Origin: Promethearchaeota archaeon
GTDB lineage: Archaea; Asgardarchaeota; Lokiarchaeia; Sigyniarchaeales; SOKP01
Direction: 5' to 3'
DNA length: 64,000 nt
NCBI GenBank assembly: GCA_019058295.1
Contig: JAHPZI010000019.1
Coordinates: forward strand, 31,403 to 95,402
In this document: one piece after another, positions 30,006-34,177 of the stretch
Layout of the letters: the number at the start of each line of letters is the position of its first letter
How positions within the stretch are numbered: the first letter of the stretch is position 1
The notes under the pieces: generated by a model
The model's database searches: none
Told to the model about the DNA's origin: nothing
The model's input: only the letters and a program-made list of their open reading frames with translations
Program-made: the position numbers and the translations under genes

Positions 30006-30530
30006 TTAGTTTTGGTTCTTTATTATGAATCTTAAAATACATTCATTATCGCCATCGGGAAATCTTTTTACAGCAATTTCCTCCCCCTCAATACCCAAAG
30101 CGTCTAACCACCCAAGGTGTCGCTGCATACAGGCACAAATATATTCATTTTCCTTTTTAGATTTTTTAACTTCTTCCCAAATGAAGCACTTTTTAACAAC
30201 ACCGTCCCCTTCTTTATCAGAATGAACCACGAACTTAAATTTCATGATTTTCGGGATGATGACATCCATAAAGGTATTTATTATTTTAAAAAGTTCAGGG
30301 ATTGTTTTTATTGTTCCTTTTTTAACGCCTAGAGCGTTCATGATATGTTTTGCTTCGATTTTTCCCATAGAAAAAATAACTTTTTGGTTTAATCCATTAG
30401 CTCTCTCAATCCCTAATTCTCGTTTCGACTTCAAGAACCATTGTCCATCGTGTTGAGCCCAGCACATCTGCAGGATGAACTTTTGGGTTGCTAAATTTAT
30501 GTCATACTTATCTTTTATTATTTGCGTCAT
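30006..30530 (-). CDS. DUF6125 / V4R-like ligand-binding protein
   Basis: W..HDGQWF, a conserved Cys set, and a C-terminal GDNECILRF. Confidence 0.7.
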   Translation of the reverse strand: MTQIIKDKYDINLATQKFILQMCWAQHDGQWFLKSKRELGIERANGLNQKVIFSMGKIEAKHIMNALGVKKGTIKTIPELFKIINTFMDVIIPKIMKFKFVVHSDKEGDGVVKKCFIWEEVKKSKKENEYICACMQRHLGWLDALGIEGEEIAVKRFPDGDNECILRFIIKNQN

Positions 30531-30606
30531 TAAATTTCACTTAATTTTTAATCTGTGTTGTTACAAAAAACAATAACTAACCTCCAATGAGGATTTATGA
30601 ATATAT

Positions 30607-30891
30607 TCAAAAACTCATTGTATCATAGGGAATATCATTTTTTTCTAACCATTCCTTAAACTCAACATCTGATTTAAACTGTTGTTTAATCAAATTTAAT
30701 AAAATGATGGAGACATCTTCAGCTTTAATAGTTAACCAATATTCATTATCAAAATCTCCATATAGATCTTTAAGATATTCGCCGCAGTCATAACCGCTTA
30801 AAACTAGGTCCCCCTTCTCATTTATTTCTGCGGTTAAAGTATGGTGTTCATCTTTTCCCCTTCTATAATCATAAATAGTTATCTTTTTCAT
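30607..30891 (-). CDS. Hypothetical protein
   Basis: Compact ORF (GDL.L.G.D.G....G..D.EY); ATG 30891. Confidence 0.7.
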   Translation of the reverse strand: MKKITIYDYRRGKDEHHTLTAEINEKGDLVLSGYDCGEYLKDLYGDFDNEYWLTIKAEDVSIILLNLIKQQFKSDVEFKEWLEKNDIPYDTMSF

Positions 30892-30968
30892 AGCAAAAAT
30901 TTTCAATTATTAAAGTTTCTCTAAAGATTTTATGTTAATAAAAAATAAAAAAAAAAAAGATATTAATA

Positions 30969-31538
30969 TTAAGGTTTTTTTAACCAATATCTAAGATATA
31001 TTAAAACAATCACTACCATTGGAATGCCCACTATTATCACCAACCACCCTAGCGTTAGGAGATATGCGTATACCCAGTAGCTGTAAGGTTTATTGCCAAA
31101 AGGAGTAAAATAATTTCCATCAATTGCTATATAAATGCAATAGGCGATAAACATAAATATTCCACAGCCACTACCTCCTATTGCTTTTTTCTTTTTTGAA
31201 TTCTCGTCTTTGAACTTAGTTCGTTCATTAGTAGGTAATTTTTGCCACCAGAGATACCCTCCTAAGCCAAAAATTAATGCCGCGGGTATTCCAACAAATA
31301 ATAGTTCCCATAAAATCAGGATAATGATGAAACTTACTACCCAATTCAAACTCCATTCATCAAAAGTCGCTGTTCCGTAATTTCCAATGGGAGACGTTTG
31401 AATATGCCAAATTAGGACGATCACTGCAATTATACAAAGAATTACAATTGCTATTACAAAAAAGAATAGAGCTTTCCAATGTTTTTTAATCATATCTTTC
31501 CAAAATTGTTCATCAGTCATTTTCTGCTCGTTTTCCAT
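30969..31538 (-). CDS. 4-TM membrane protein of unknown function
   Basis: Hydrophobic segments with normal start and stop context. Confidence 0.75.
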   Translation of the reverse strand: MENEQKMTDEQFWKDMIKKHWKALFFFVIAIVILCIIAVIVLIWHIQTSPIGNYGTATFDEWSLNWVVSFIIILILWELLFVGIPAALIFGLGGYLWWQKLPTNERTKFKDENSKKKKAIGGSGCGIFMFIAYCIYIAIDGNYFTPFGNKPYSYWVYAYLLTLGWLVIIVGIPMVVIVLIYLRYWLKKP

Positions 31539-31673
31539 ATTAATCTTTTATTACTTTCTTATTTTTTTGGTATTTTTTTTTACTTTTATCCTTATTATTT
31601 ATATTTTAAAAATAGTTTGACAGAAATTATACCATCGAATTACGATGCTTTTAAGGGAGAATACTAAGATTTA

Positions 31674-32429
31674 TTATATCAGATCTTTTAATGCAAGAAT
31701 CAAAACCATCGTAAAAATACCAGCAACTATTAAAATCAATTGTCTGATACTATATTTTGCCCCCAATTTCCGATGTAGTTCAGGAGTTAAATCAGATAAT
31801 GCTATATACAAAAAACTTGCTGCCGAAATTGCTAGTACATAAGGGATGACAAGAGATATCTCATCTAAAATAAAATAACTTATAATCGCAGCAGGAATCG
31901 TAGTTGATCCTGATAAACTATTGTAAATAAAGGCTTTTTTCTTTGAATAGTTTTTATCAATTAAGATTCCAAGATCTCCTACTTCTTGTGGAATTTCGTG
32001 TACAATTACAGAAAGACTAACGGCGATTCCAATTGTAAAATCAATTAGAAATGCAGCGGCTATCACAATCCCATCAACAAGATTGTGAAACGCATCTCCA
32101 AAAATAATGATTGGTCCCGCTGCAGATTCTGTGACTTCACATTCAACTTGATGGCAATGACGCCAGATTATTAGTTTTTCTAAGATGAAAAAAAACATTA
32201 ATCCAATTAGGATCATCGGTAAAACTAAATTAAGGTTATATCCTGACCGTATAATCGCTGTGGGGATCATTCCTAAAAATGCTGCTGCTAATAACGTCCC
32301 TGTCGCATATGCTACTAAACATGGAATAAGTTTTTCCTGATGAGCTTTTCCTAACTGAATAAAACCCATTGCTATGATTATTGCTCCAATACTGCCTAAA
32401 ATGCTAAAAAATATTATCCAGAAGAGAAT
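31674..32429 (-). CDS. ZIP family metal (Zn/Fe) transporter; N-terminus extends upstream of ATG 32369
   Basis: GDAFHNLVDG, HEIPQEVGD and SDLTPELH motifs. In-frame TM1 (ILFWIIFFSILGSIG) lies upstream of the first ATG; start provisionally ATT 32429. Confidence 0.9.
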   Translation of the reverse strand: MLFWIIFFSILGSIGAIIIAMGFIQLGKAHQEKLIPCLVAYATGTLLAAAFLGMIPTAIIRSGYNLNLVLPMILIGLMFFFILEKLIIWRHCHQVECEVTESAAGPIIIFGDAFHNLVDGIVIAAAFLIDFTIGIAVSLSVIVHEIPQEVGDLGILIDKNYSKKKAFIYNSLSGSTTIPAAIISYFILDEISLVIPYVLAISAASFLYIALSDLTPELHRKLGAKYSIRQLILIVAGIFTMVLILALKDLI

Positions 32430-32475
32430 ATTGAACCAACTCTTGGATTTTTATTAGATAGATTAATTTTATAAC

Positions 32476-32562
32476 AACTAATTTATATTAAAATATATTA
32501 ACTATAAAACATATATCAACTATAAAATATAAATTAACTAGTATAAAGAAGAGAAGTAACTA
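32476..32562. promoter_or_regulatory. Array of AACTA direct repeats between divergent ZIP and HxlR genes (candidate operator)
   Basis: AACTA at 32476, 32500, 32518, 32536 and 32558; the 10-mer AACTATAAAA is exact at 32500 and 32518. Confidence 0.45.
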
Positions 32563-32584
32563 TACAATTGGAAAGCTGATATAA

Positions 32585-32923
32585 ATGAATGAAGTCAATT
32601 GTGATTGTGGGATGAATGATTGTTTTCCTGGATGTGGGTGCGAGATATTAACCTTTTTAGGAAAGAAATGGAGCGTGTATATAATAATGCATTTAATGGA
32701 AATTCAACAGCTCCGATTTAATAAGTTCCTCAATCACATGCCAAAATTAGGACCAAAAAGTCTCTCTGCCAGATTAAAAGAAGCCGAAAATCTAGAATTA
32801 ATAAATAGATCTGTTGAAACTAATAGTCCTGTAAAAGTATTGTATTCTTTAACTAAAAAAGGTATAGAACTTGGAAATTTATTAAAAAAAATGAAACATT
32901 TAGTCCATTCTTGGACAAATTAA
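32585..32923 (+). CDS. HxlR-family winged-helix transcriptional regulator with Cys-rich N-terminus
   Basis: LGKKW, RFN, LS.RLKE and P.KV.YSLT.KG motifs; N-terminal CDCGMNDCFPGCGC. Confidence 0.9.
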   Translation: MNEVNCDCGMNDCFPGCGCEILTFLGKKWSVYIIMHLMEIQQLRFNKFLNHMPKLGPKSLSARLKEAENLELINRSVETNSPVKVLYSLTKKGIELGNLLKKMKHLVHSWTN

Positions 32924-33000
32924 TCATTCCTAATAATAAATTTAAGGAGGAATGAGAATTAGTTTAAAAAAATAAAATAAATAAGATTAGAAAAATCAAA

Positions 33001-34177
33001 TTACTTTTTTGATAAATATCGAATTTTAACCATTAAATCCCGGAGTTCCATTTTATCATTATCAGCAGTTATATATTTCTTTTTAACACCTTCATCAAGT
33101 GCGAACGTTGTAATTTGATTTCCTTGGAGGGAAACCATTTTACCGAAGTCACCATTCAACACGAGTTTCATGGCAGCTAATCCAAATCGTAATCCTAGGA
33201 TTCGGTCAAATGAGTTTGGGTGTCCTGCTCTCATTGTATGTCCTAAAACAACGCTTCGTACTTCAAAATCCACACTATTCTCTTGAAATTCCTCTTTTAA
33301 ATCATCTCTTAGCTTTAATTCATCGACAAGGACTTGAGACATATTTAAAGCAGGTAATACAGGATTTCCAAACGTATCTTTTGGTAATTTATCAATTGTC
33401 TCTTGTGTAATTGTCTTAAAGTCTCGTTTAAGCGAATCTTGATCCGGATAAGCACCTTCAGAGCACGCAATAATATGATATTTATATCCTGCTTTAACTC
33501 TCTTTTTAAGAACTTCGATAACATCTCTTTCTAAACTGAACGGGGTTTCTGGGATCAAAATGATATCTGCACCACTCGAAATTCCACTATACATCGTAAG
33601 AAATCCAGCATCACGTCCCATAACTTCTACAATAAAAACTCTTTGATGTGATCGTGCGGTGGTTGTTAAATTATCCATTGCATCCGATGCTAATTGAACT
33701 GCGCTCCAAAATCCAAAAGTGTAATGGGTTCCTGCTAGATCATTATCAATCGTTTTTGGGCAGCCAACGACCTTCGCATTTGCATGTTTATACATCAAAT
33801 CTGCCACTCCTAATGTATCATCACCCCCTATGCATATTAGAGCATCGATTCCTAACTCATCAAACTTAGCAGCCAATTCTTTTGCTCTTTTTTCTTTTGA
33901 TTCAACACCTTTAAAAGGATTAGTTCTGCTTGTATAGAGAATAGTACCACCTATGGTATGAAGGTCATCATGGTCAGCAATGTTAAGTGGTATTGTCAGA
34001 TTTTCTAAAAATCCTTTCCATCCTTTAAGAATTCCAACACATTCAACACCGGCATCAAATGCTTTAAGCATGATACCATATAATACAGAATTTAAACCGG
34101 GGCAGTATACGGCAGTCAAGGAAAATCTTGAGCATGGCTCCGCCGCCCGTCAAAATACCAACTTTTTTAATTGTCAT
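33001..34177 (-). CDS. pfp: PPi-dependent 6-phosphofructokinase (PfkA family), two exons: join(34177..34138, 34106..33001), 381 aa
   Basis: Exon 1 MTIKKVGILTGGG plus spliced D plus CPGLN restores TGGGDCPGLN. GGDDT and PKTIDND are the PPi-type signature; MGR is also present. Confidence 0.9.
34107..34137 (-). other. Putative 31-nt bulge-helix-bulge mRNA intron in pfp
   Basis: Removing CCAUGCUCAAGAUUUUCCUUGACUGCCGUAU restores the frame and the conserved Asp. Boundaries fall in 3-nt bulges AG|C and AU|A flanking the 4-bp helix GCGG/CCGU. Confidence 0.8.

What the first reader, a model, noticed from the sequence alone, without database searches (positions are those of the whole stretch)
34090..34177. 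Bulge-helix-bulge intron inside a glycolytic protein-coding gene (PPi-PFK): candidate mRNA splicing system in an Asgard archaeon
Seen: the ORF track starts PFK at a spurious TTG (MTAVYCPGLN). The real N-terminus, MTIKKVGILTGGG (ATG 34177), is in another frame. Deleting exactly 31 nt (34107..34137) joins GGA G|AC TGC CCC GGT to give the conserved TGGGDCPGLN. The pre-mRNA folds as a BHB: outer helix GGGC-G/C-(U)-GCCC, central 4 bp GCGG/CCGU, 3-nt bulges AG|C and AU|A cut after their second nucleotide, and inner pairs CA/UG plus UCAAG/CUUGA. The structure-predicted cuts coincide with the protein-predicted junctions. Unspliced, the frame gives a 37-aa dead peptide. The rest of the gene is intact. 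Established: BHB is the substrate of archaeal tRNA splicing endonuclease (EndA), and the well-known archaeal mRNA intron is in crenarchaeal cbf5. Inference: this organism splices a central-metabolism mRNA with EndA/RtcB, possibly as a regulatory switch on glycolysis/gluconeogenesis, reminiscent of non-spliceosomal HAC1/XBP1 splicing.
Basis: partly seen in the sequence, partly recalled or inferred. Interest (0 to 1): 0.95.

Follow-up and report, generated by a model that had tools for sequence, protein, structure and literature searches.

The report
tRNA-type mini-intron in Asgard phosphofructokinase gene
The only phosphofructokinase gene of this Asgard (Promethearchaeota) archaeon is interrupted by a 31-base insert shaped like the introns that archaea cut out of tRNAs, so its mRNA almost certainly has to be cut and re-joined before the enzyme can be made, which papers I could search report for only one other archaeal protein gene (cbf5).

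Summary
The PFK gene (minus strand, 33001-34177) carries a 31-nt insert at 34107-34137. Removing exactly these bases, and no neighbouring 31-nt window, restores the family motif TGGGDCPGLN and a 381-aa protein colinear with intronless orthologues.

The insert and its flanking exon bases form a bulge-helix-bulge (BHB). The cuts predicted by the structure coincide with the junction required by the protein; 35 of 200,000 shuffled inserts do this.

- **Relatives:** 27 of 109 related PFK loci from Promethearchaeota MAGs carry an insert at this codon. The central 4-bp helix pairs in all 21 distinct versions, and there are compensatory changes.
- **Selection:** carriers evolve under purifying selection as strong as intronless alleles (dN/dS 0.065 against 0.073).
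- **Second site:** a 30-nt BHB insert sits at the GGD|D motif in relatives.
- **Enzymes:** the genome encodes two EndA paralogues. RtcB was not found in this 79%-complete assembly but is in 33 of 37 relatives.
- **Missing evidence:** no RNA read across the junction was available, so splicing is inferred, not shown.
- **Regulatory switch:** this idea has no support.

This scan had already noted the same kind of insert in other genes of this genome (actin, uL11, argG and others), but not this one.

The parts
34138..34177 (-). Exon 1 of the PFK gene: ATG (34177-34175) plus 13 codons and the first base of the Asp codon (MTIKKVGILTGGG + G).
   Evidence: The peptide K[KR][VI]GILTGGGD is kept in all 27 carriers, and 10 of 14 variable sites are third codon positions. 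Intronless orthologues align from residue 1 without a gap at the junction.
34107..34137 (-). 31-nt BHB mini-intron. It consists of one base of the 5' bulge, an imperfect hairpin (CA/UG, G-C, UCAAG/CUUGA, 6-nt loop), the 3' strand of the central helix (CCGU), and two bases of the 3' bulge.
   Evidence: It contains the TTG that ORF finders take as the start. A covariance model of it finds no second copy in the genome.
33001..34106 (-). Exon 2: the last two bases of the Asp codon, then CPGLN... to the stop (TAA 33003-33001). PFK domain with GGDD and PKTIDND motifs.
   Evidence: Pfam PF00365 E 1.9e-83. Closest solved chain is PDB 44xa, E 8.9e-137. dN/dS 0.10 against the nearest carrier. It is the only PF00365 match in the assembly.
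34100..34148 (-). The whole BHB motif. Outer helix: 34144-34148 with 34100-34105 (one bulged U). Central 4-bp helix: 34140-34143 with 34109-34112. 5' bulge: 34137-34139. 3' bulge: 34106-34108. The cuts fall after the second base of each bulge.
   Evidence: On 21 distinct orthologous sequences, 92.8% of cells are paired against 30-52% for slid partners. The central helix is paired in 84 of 84 cells, and 6 pairs show changes on both sides.

Best explanation
The 31 nt at 34107-34137 are an archaeal bulge-helix-bulge (tRNA-type) intron in the pre-mRNA of the genome's single PFK-family gene.

**Proposed mechanism.**
1. The transcript folds so that exon bases (GGGCG, GCGG; C-U-GCCC) and intron bases (CCGU) build the outer and central helices. 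This presents two 3-nt bulges 4 bp apart.
2. The heteromeric splicing endonuclease cuts after the second base of each bulge. It is made of a catalytic EndA alpha encoded on contig 1 and a His-less beta-like paralogue on contig 26.
3. An RtcB-type ligase joins the 2',3'-cyclic phosphate and 5'-OH ends.
4. This creates the Asp codon G|AC and the reading frame for a 381-aa, probably PPi-dependent, phosphofructokinase.

Without excision only a 37-aa peptide, or an N-terminally truncated protein lacking the GGGDCPGLN phosphate-donor loop, could be made.

**Shown:** the insert is in the DNA; the junction is exact; the BHB is conserved and covaries; both exons are under coding constraint in carriers; intronless alleles exist; EndA genes are present.

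**Inferred:** cleavage by EndA, ligation by RtcB, and that splicing occurs in vivo.

The intron is one of at least two in this gene family and one of several in this genome. It is gained or lost very often, so it is most likely a tolerated element rather than a regulator.
For: - **Unique junction:** only one of 15 adjacent 31-nt deletions restores GGGDCPGLN, and it equals the cuts the BHB rule predicts. 35 of 200,000 shuffled inserts do the same.
- **Same-codon inserts in relatives:** 27 of 109 PFK loci from Promethearchaeota MAGs of many projects carry a 31-32-nt insert at this codon. The others read GGnGGnGAy TGy CCn without it.
- **Structure counts:** 93.7% paired in 11 sequences and 92.8% in 21, against 30-52% for slid controls. 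The central helix pairs in 100% of cells. One C-G to U-A double change links a synonymous exon base to an intron base (L102). Five inner pairs show compensatory changes. The genus-g4, L090 and L102 versions have a different hairpin sequence in the same architecture.
- **Selection:** median dN/dS is 0.065 among carriers against 0.073 among intronless alleles; G000 against G007 is 0.10 at dS 0.21. No carrier has any other frame break. Exon 1 varies mainly at third positions.
- **Second site:** a 30-nt, stop-containing BHB insert sits at GGD|D in 19 loci. It has a 10-bp stem, 3-nt bulges and a covarying central helix, and all four combinations of the two sites occur.
- **Enzymes:** two PF01974/PF02778 proteins are present, 28% identical, one with the catalytic His and one with Asp at that place. 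This matches the (alpha-beta)2 EndA with broad specificity reported for Asgard archaea (PMC5829648). RtcB is in 33 of 37 relatives, including the nearest one.
- **Other genes:** argG of this genome has a 30-nt BHB insert with a TGA at SGGL|DTS. RtcB of three relatives has a 29-nt one at GVGY|DINCG.
- **DNA reality:** contigs of two further samples hold the insert.
Against: - No RNA evidence: the only RNA run that holds the gene (X20) has two 151-nt contigs in exon 2 and none over the insert.
- RtcB was not found in this assembly, which is 79% complete.
- The outer helix needs one bulged U, and the minimum-free-energy fold of the window's own sequence is a near-BHB alternative. The BHB scores -13.4 against an MFE of -16.9 kcal/mol on 54 nt; z is -1.23 on 66 nt.
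- Cleavage by this organism's EndA has never been tested.
Confidence: 0.85

Rival explanations
1. The insert is not removed. The protein starts downstream, at the TTG inside the insert or at Met26 as gene callers assume, and the hairpin is only a structured 5' leader, perhaps regulatory.
For: Gene callers produce exactly such products: a 372-aa ORF from TTG, and 356-aa database entries P0001 and P0002 from Met26 for 94-95% identical relatives. No spliced RNA has been seen.
Against: - Exon 1 is kept as coding sequence in a frame that joins exon 2 only after excision. K[KR][VI]GILTGGGD is invariant in pattern, and 10 of 14 variable sites are third positions.
- A truncated protein lacks profile positions 1-10 of PF00365 and the GGGD loop.
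- The exon bases that pair in the BHB (G|AC UGC CC) are fixed in carriers, whereas intronless alleles mostly use GAT TGy.
- The second insert, at GGD|D, lies 95 codons into the gene and carries stops. It cannot be bypassed by a downstream start.
Confidence: 0.05
2. The gene is a pseudogene, inactivated by a small insertion (a MITE-like or replication-slippage product).
For: It is a frame-breaking 31-nt insert in a conserved motif. The insert is scattered among relatives.
Against: - dN/dS among carriers is 0.065, no higher than for intronless alleles.
- All 27 carriers keep full-length open exons.
- The insert always lies at the same phase of the same codon and keeps a BHB.
- It is the only PFK-family gene in the assembly.
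- A covariance model finds no other copy of the insert in the genome, so it is not a multicopy mobile element.
Confidence: 0.03
3. The insert is skipped at translation (programmed bypassing as in phage T4 gene 60, or frameshifting) rather than removed from the RNA.
For: The last full codon before the insert is GGA, the take-off codon of gene 60 (own knowledge), and a hairpin follows.
Against: - There is no matching GGA landing codon before exon 2.
- No stop codon follows the take-off codon.
- The Asp codon is itself split G|AC, so hopping between codons cannot create it.
- The 30-nt site-2, argG and RtcB inserts share the BHB geometry, not take-off/landing pairs.
Confidence: 0.02
4. The insert is excised from the RNA, but by machinery other than EndA/RtcB (another endonuclease-ligase pair, or self-cleavage).
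For: RtcB was not found in this assembly. EndA action is untested.
Against: - The cuts fall exactly where the EndA rule places them: two 3-nt bulges, 4 bp apart, cut after the second base.
- 31 nt is too small for group I or II introns.
- RtcB is present in 33 of 37 relatives, and the assembly is only 79% complete.
Confidence: 0.05

Closest known systems
cbf5 pre-mRNA intron of Crenarchaeota (Aeropyrum, Sulfolobales, Desulfurococcales): Watanabe 2002; Yoshinari 2006; Yokobori 2009 (PMC2738675)
   Same: A short BHB intron inside an archaeal protein-coding sequence. It is linked to a hetero-oligomeric EndA, and some lineages have lost it.
   Different: - A different phylum (Promethearchaeota/Asgard) and a different gene (a central-metabolism enzyme).
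- Two alternative intron sites in one gene.
- Far faster turnover: at least 9 well-supported gains or losses of site 1 among 93 alleles, against about two losses for cbf5.
- Splicing of cbf5 was shown by experiment; here it is inferred.
BHB introns of archaeal pre-tRNAs and pre-rRNAs, including the heavily interrupted tRNA genes of Asgard archaea (bioRxiv 10.64898/2026.10.13.758758; PMC5829648)
   Same: The same motif (3-nt bulge, 4-bp helix, 3-nt bulge), the same size range (tRNA introns of 13-54 nt predicted in this genome), and the same presumed enzymes.
   Different: The host RNA is an mRNA. The helices are built from codons, so exon pairing constrains synonymous sites. That preprint does not mention mRNA.
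HAC1/XBP1 unconventional mRNA splicing in eukaryotes (IRE1 cleavage, RtcB or Trl1 ligation)
   Same: Spliceosome-independent removal of a short, frame-changing intron from an mRNA, with the tRNA ligase as joiner.
   Different: - The cuts here lie in 3-nt bulges of a BHB, not in the loops of twin hairpins.
- The presumed nuclease is EndA, not IRE1.
- There is no evidence for regulated splicing.
Programmed translational bypassing (phage T4 gene 60)
   Same: A short non-coding gap inside an ORF, after a GGA codon, with a hairpin.
   Different: There is no landing codon and no stop after take-off. The junction splits a codon. This is rejected as the mechanism.

Membership tests
Archaeal BHB (EndA-type) intron | Two 3-nt bulges on opposite strands, separated by a 4-bp helix | tested here: met
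   GCGG/CCGU lies between bulges AGC and AUA. The central helix is paired in 84 of 84 cells of 21 distinct orthologous sequences.
Archaeal BHB (EndA-type) intron | Flanking helices outside and inside the bulges (hBHBh') | tested here: met
   The outer helix has 5 pairs with one bulged U, 93% paired across sequences. The inner hairpin is 89% paired, with 5 pairs changed on both sides. The form is slightly relaxed. In several relatives the minimum-free-energy fold has a 4-nt 3' bulge instead.
Archaeal BHB (EndA-type) intron | Cuts after the second base of each bulge give a functional mature RNA | tested here: met
   The predicted cuts equal the only deletion that restores GGGDCPGLN and the frame. 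The product is colinear with intronless orthologues.
Archaeal BHB (EndA-type) intron | The organism encodes the splicing endonuclease | tested here: met
   There are two PF01974 + PF02778 proteins (E 5.9e-31 and 5.9e-19), one with and one without the catalytic His. The broad-specificity L1 loop was not examined.
Archaeal BHB (EndA-type) intron | The organism encodes the RtcB ligase | tested here: inconclusive
   PF01139 was not found in this 79%-complete assembly. It was found in 33 of 37 relatives, 8 of 9 in the genus.
Archaeal BHB (EndA-type) intron | Excision observed in RNA (spliced junction, free or circular intron) | not testable with these tools
   The one RNA run that holds the gene has no contig over the insert.
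Phosphofructokinase family (PF00365), PPi-dependent type | PFK domain; Asp at E. coli position 104 and Lys at 124 for PPi dependence (PMC3608648) | tested here: met
   PF00365 E 1.9e-83. The motifs GGDD and PKTIDND are in the translation. Placing them at positions 104 and 124 is by motif, from my own knowledge. NCBIfam's best model over its cut-off is named ATP-dependent. Activity is untested.
HAC1/XBP1-type unconventional intron | Splice sites in the loops of two short hairpins cut by IRE1 | tested here: not met
   The splice sites lie in 3-nt bulges flanking a 4-bp helix. IRE1 was not searched for.
Gene-60-type translational bypass | Matching take-off and landing codons, with a stop after take-off | tested here: not met
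   No GGA precedes exon 2, GCC follows the GGA, and the junction splits the Asp codon.

The most novel reading that the evidence does not exclude
This intron is one visible piece of a genome-wide, still active mRNA-splicing layer in Promethearchaeota. Dozens of 29-32-nt BHB mini-introns sit in protein-coding genes, often at Gly-rich motifs and, in the three sites I looked at in this genome and gene family, at AG|AC. They are gained and lost on the time scale of species. They are removed by the tRNA-splicing enzymes, and the ligase's own mRNA is a substrate in some species. Expression of central metabolism, and of the splicing machinery itself, would then depend on EndA/RtcB activity and could be tuned by it.
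Probability: 0.6. Interest if true: 0.9.

Novelty: new member of a known kind. Interest (0 to 1): 0.8.

Why it matters
**State of the literature.** In the papers I could search, splicing of an archaeal coding sequence by the tRNA machinery is documented for one gene, cbf5, in Crenarchaeota. A 2025 paper on archaeal endonucleases still cites only that case.

**What this adds.** The same mechanism appears here in the closest prokaryotic relatives of eukaryotes. It interrupts a glycolytic or gluconeogenic enzyme at its catalytic motif, with a second site in the same gene and further examples in argG and in RtcB itself. That would mean interrupted protein genes and obligatory mRNA splicing were already routine in the archaeal lineage related to the eukaryotic ancestor.

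**An experimental handle.** Presence/absence polymorphism among close relatives gives a way to study intron gain and loss.

**A practical consequence.** Gene callers truncate or split such genes. Public databases hold 356-aa PFKs that lack the active-site loop. Metabolic reconstructions and completeness estimates of Asgard MAGs are therefore biased.

Tried and rejected
- **Genome-wide scan for other introns.** I wrote a scan of the whole assembly for BHB geometry plus ORF rescue. The first version timed out. The second gave about 12,000 hits, no more than controls with the 3' partner shifted by 2 nt, at every stringency tried. Adjacent same-strand genes mimic 'rescue', so the scan says nothing about how many introns exist.
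- **Covariance model.** Model R1 of the site-1 intron found only the PFK copy in the genome (58 bits). The next hit (18 bits, E 1.4) is an AT-rich intergenic hairpin. The intron is therefore not a multicopy sequence family.
- **RNA evidence.** Run X20 (a wetland metatranscriptome) holds two 151-nt contigs of exon 2 at 97-98% identity and nothing over the insert. There was no joint at 34106/34138 in any run laid.
- **Folding energy.** As a test it is not significant (z = -1.23).
- **Literature.** Searches for Asgard, Lokiarchaeota or Promethearchaeota mRNA introns, and for an Asgard PFK paper, found nothing relevant.
- **Full-length database proteins.** I considered P0003 and P0004 (88% identity, 382 aa) as possible products of spliced RNA. 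I rejected this because the same protein also comes from a JGI record, so an intronless DNA allele explains them.

Full report
**What is in the sequence.** On the minus strand an ATG at 34177 opens MTIKKVGILTGGG. The frame then runs into 31 extra bases (34107-34137) and ends after 37 codons. The long ORF that ORF finders report (33001-34119, 372 aa) starts at a TTG inside those 31 bases and begins ...CPGLN. I removed every 31-nt window around the site in turn. Only 34107-34137 gives TGGGDCPGLN and a 381-aa protein. Exon 2 is a phosphofructokinase: PF00365 E 1.9e-83, starting at profile position 11, so the first ten positions are what exon 1 supplies. The closest solved chain is PDB 44xa, E 8.9e-137. 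It is the only PF00365 match in the 3.2-Mb, 79%-complete assembly. The motifs GGDD and PKTIDND correspond to the Asp104 + Lys124 signature that PMC3608648 associates with PPi dependence. NCBIfam's best model over its cut-off is named ATP-dependent, so the phosphate donor remains an inference.

**The RNA structure.** The flanks and the insert form GGGCG-GCGG-[AG|C]-CA...UG-CCGU-[AU|A]-C(U)GCCC. That is an outer helix, a 4-bp central helix between two 3-nt bulges, and an inner hairpin. Cutting after the second base of each bulge is the rule for archaeal splicing endonuclease (established knowledge; PMC5829648, PMC2738675). It gives exactly the junction that the protein demands. With the exons held fixed, 35 of 200,000 shuffles of the insert reproduce a BHB at those positions. 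Energy alone is not persuasive. The MFE of the 66-nt region (-18.9 kcal/mol, z -1.23) is a close alternative, and the BHB is 3.5 kcal/mol above the MFE on a 54-nt piece. In several relatives the MFE itself has the 3-nt 5' bulge, the hairpin and a 3-4-nt 3' bulge.

**Relatives.** A protein search of 60 related genomes found the gene in 58. A scan of GTDB species genomes added 80 loci, almost all titled Promethearchaeota or Promethearchaeia MAGs. This confirms the Asgard/Loki-type origin. I resolved 109 loci:
- 27 carry a 31- or 32-nt insert at the same phase of the same codon.
- 19 carry a second, 30-nt insert with in-frame stops at the GGD|D motif about 95 codons downstream.
- 12 carry both.
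- All others read straight through.

In the genomes with kinship codes, carriers of site 1 are confined to the window's family (genera g1, g2, g4, g6, g11). None was seen in the 20 loci of sister families that I read, including two closed genomes. The window's gene has site 1 only.

**Covariation.** On 11 sequences the named structure pairs in 93.7% of cells, against 30-52% when the 3' partners are slid. On 21 distinct sequences it pairs in 92.8%. The central helix pairs in all 84 cells. In L102 its C-G becomes U-A through a synonymous GGC-to-GGT change in the exon and a G-to-A change in the intron. Five pairs of the hairpin show changes on both sides. Genus g4, L090 and L102 carry a quite different hairpin sequence (a 9-bp stem in L090) in the same architecture. 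Carriers always have G|AC TGY CC in exon 2, which pairs with exon 1, whereas intronless alleles mostly use GAT. The site-2 insert has the same geometry. Its outer helix is UAUCG/CGAUA, its central strand GUGG faces CUGA or CUAA (a U-G to U-A change), its bulges are AG|U and AG|A, and it has a perfect 10-bp stem.

**Function of the gene.**
- Pairwise dN/dS among site-1 carriers has a median of 0.065 (maximum 0.164). Intronless alleles give 0.073. The window's gene against its nearest carrier (96% identical protein) gives 0.10 at dS 0.21.
- No carrier has another frame break.
- Exon 1 is also constrained as coding sequence. Among 21 distinct carrier exon-1 sequences, 10 of 14 variable sites in codons 4-14 are third positions, and the peptide pattern K[KR][VI]GILTGGGD is kept.

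This excludes a pseudogene. It also argues against a protein that starts downstream of the insert. Site 2 lies deep inside the gene and carries stops, so a downstream start cannot avoid it at all.

**Turnover.** On a maximum-likelihood tree of 93 distinct proteins, site 1 needs 17 changes of state (shuffled labels: 20.6), of which well-supported branches force at least 9. Site 2 needs 14, at least 7 forced. The inserts are clearly homologous across distant alleles. The pattern therefore means many precise losses, spread by recombination, or both. Precise loss is what recombination with a cDNA of spliced mRNA would produce; that step is inference. A conserved regulatory role is hard to reconcile with this pattern.

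**Machinery.** The assembly encodes two 201-aa proteins with the N- and C-terminal domains of tRNA-intron endonuclease. They are 28% identical. One has His in the catalytic position and the other has Asp. This fits the (alpha-beta)2 enzyme with broad substrate range described for Asgard and TACK archaea (PMC5829648). RtcB was not found in this assembly but is in 33 of 37 relatives and 8 of 9 genomes of the genus. ARAGORN predicts about ten intron-bearing tRNA genes.

**The same thing elsewhere.** Earlier notes of this scan report such inserts in other genes of this genome. I checked one myself. argG (contig 2) has a 30-nt insert with a TGA at SGGL|DTS, a central helix GAUU/GAUC, bulges AG|A and AA|A, and a 9-bp stem. 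While looking for RtcB, I found that its gene in three relatives is split by a 29-nt insert at GVGY|DINCG. That insert has a central helix UUGG/CCAA, 3-nt bulges and a 9-bp stem. A covariance model of the PFK intron finds no other copy in the genome. The inserts therefore share architecture, not sequence.

**Reality of the DNA, and RNA evidence.** Contigs of the probable source run cover the region without difference. A 422-nt contig from another sample spans the insert with 15 substitutions and no indel there. A contig from a different study reaches 25 nt into it. A wetland metatranscriptome holds two 151-nt contigs of exon 2 (97-98% identical) but nothing over the insert. Expression of a close relative's gene is therefore likely, but splicing is unobserved.

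**Comparison with what is known.** The closest case is the cbf5 intron of Crenarchaeota (PMC2738675). Papers up to 2025-2026 still cite only that example. A 2026 preprint on Asgard tRNA introns does not mention mRNA. Mechanistically this PFK intron is a member of that kind. What is new:
- the lineage;
- the gene;
- two sites in one gene;
- the minimal 30-32-nt size;
- the rapid turnover.

It resembles HAC1/XBP1 splicing only in using a tRNA ligase and changing the frame. The substrate shape differs, and no regulation is shown.

**Verdict.** Confidence that this is a spliced BHB intron is 0.85. The missing piece is a read, cDNA or peptide across the junction.

Noticed in passing
Relatives: L008, L015, L018, L022 and 15 further loci, about 95 codons into the PFK gene (not in the window): A second, 30-nt BHB insert with one to three in-frame stops sits at the GGD|D motif of the same gene. 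It occurs with or without the site-1 intron. Both sites have the exon context GGnGGAG|AC.
   Followed up: yes
L147 (G002:C3:15930-16080) and L148 (G021:C222:4170-4320); also G006: The RtcB ligase gene of three relatives is itself split by a 29-nt BHB insert at GVGY|DINCG (central helix UUGG/CCAA, 9-bp stem). There, the mRNA of the ligase would need the ligase.
   Followed up: partly
The exon context is again AG|AC.
   Followed up: partly
L010, L017, L022 (ATA) and L003, L004 (ACG), at the position of the PFK start codon: Several orthologues have ATA or ACG where others have ATG, behind the same GGTGA-like motif. This may be a non-canonical start or a start a few codons downstream.
   Followed up: no
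G000, one contig, positions 30303-33335 (ARAGORN output; contig name not printed): 27 intron-less tRNA genes for nearly all amino acids are packed into 3 kb, unlike the scattered, often intron-bearing tRNA genes elsewhere. This may be a viral or mobile tRNA array, or contamination.
   Followed up: no
P0001, P0002 (public protein collection): The closest database proteins (95% and 94% identical) are 356 aa and start at Met26. Gene callers truncate the intron-bearing alleles and lose the GGGDCPGLN loop.
   Followed up: partly
L001/L002 against L003, L004, L006, L007, L012 (same genus g1): The window's PFK allele and that of G007 lack a 10-aa insert (AKT.EEKE..) that other genomes of the genus have, and they branch apart from them on the gene tree. 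This suggests allele exchange between genera.
   Followed up: no
L106 (CP070831.1, upstream of the PFK match): The stretch that would hold exon 1 and the intron site reads as a run of N in the held copy, so this closed genome could not be scored.
   Followed up: no
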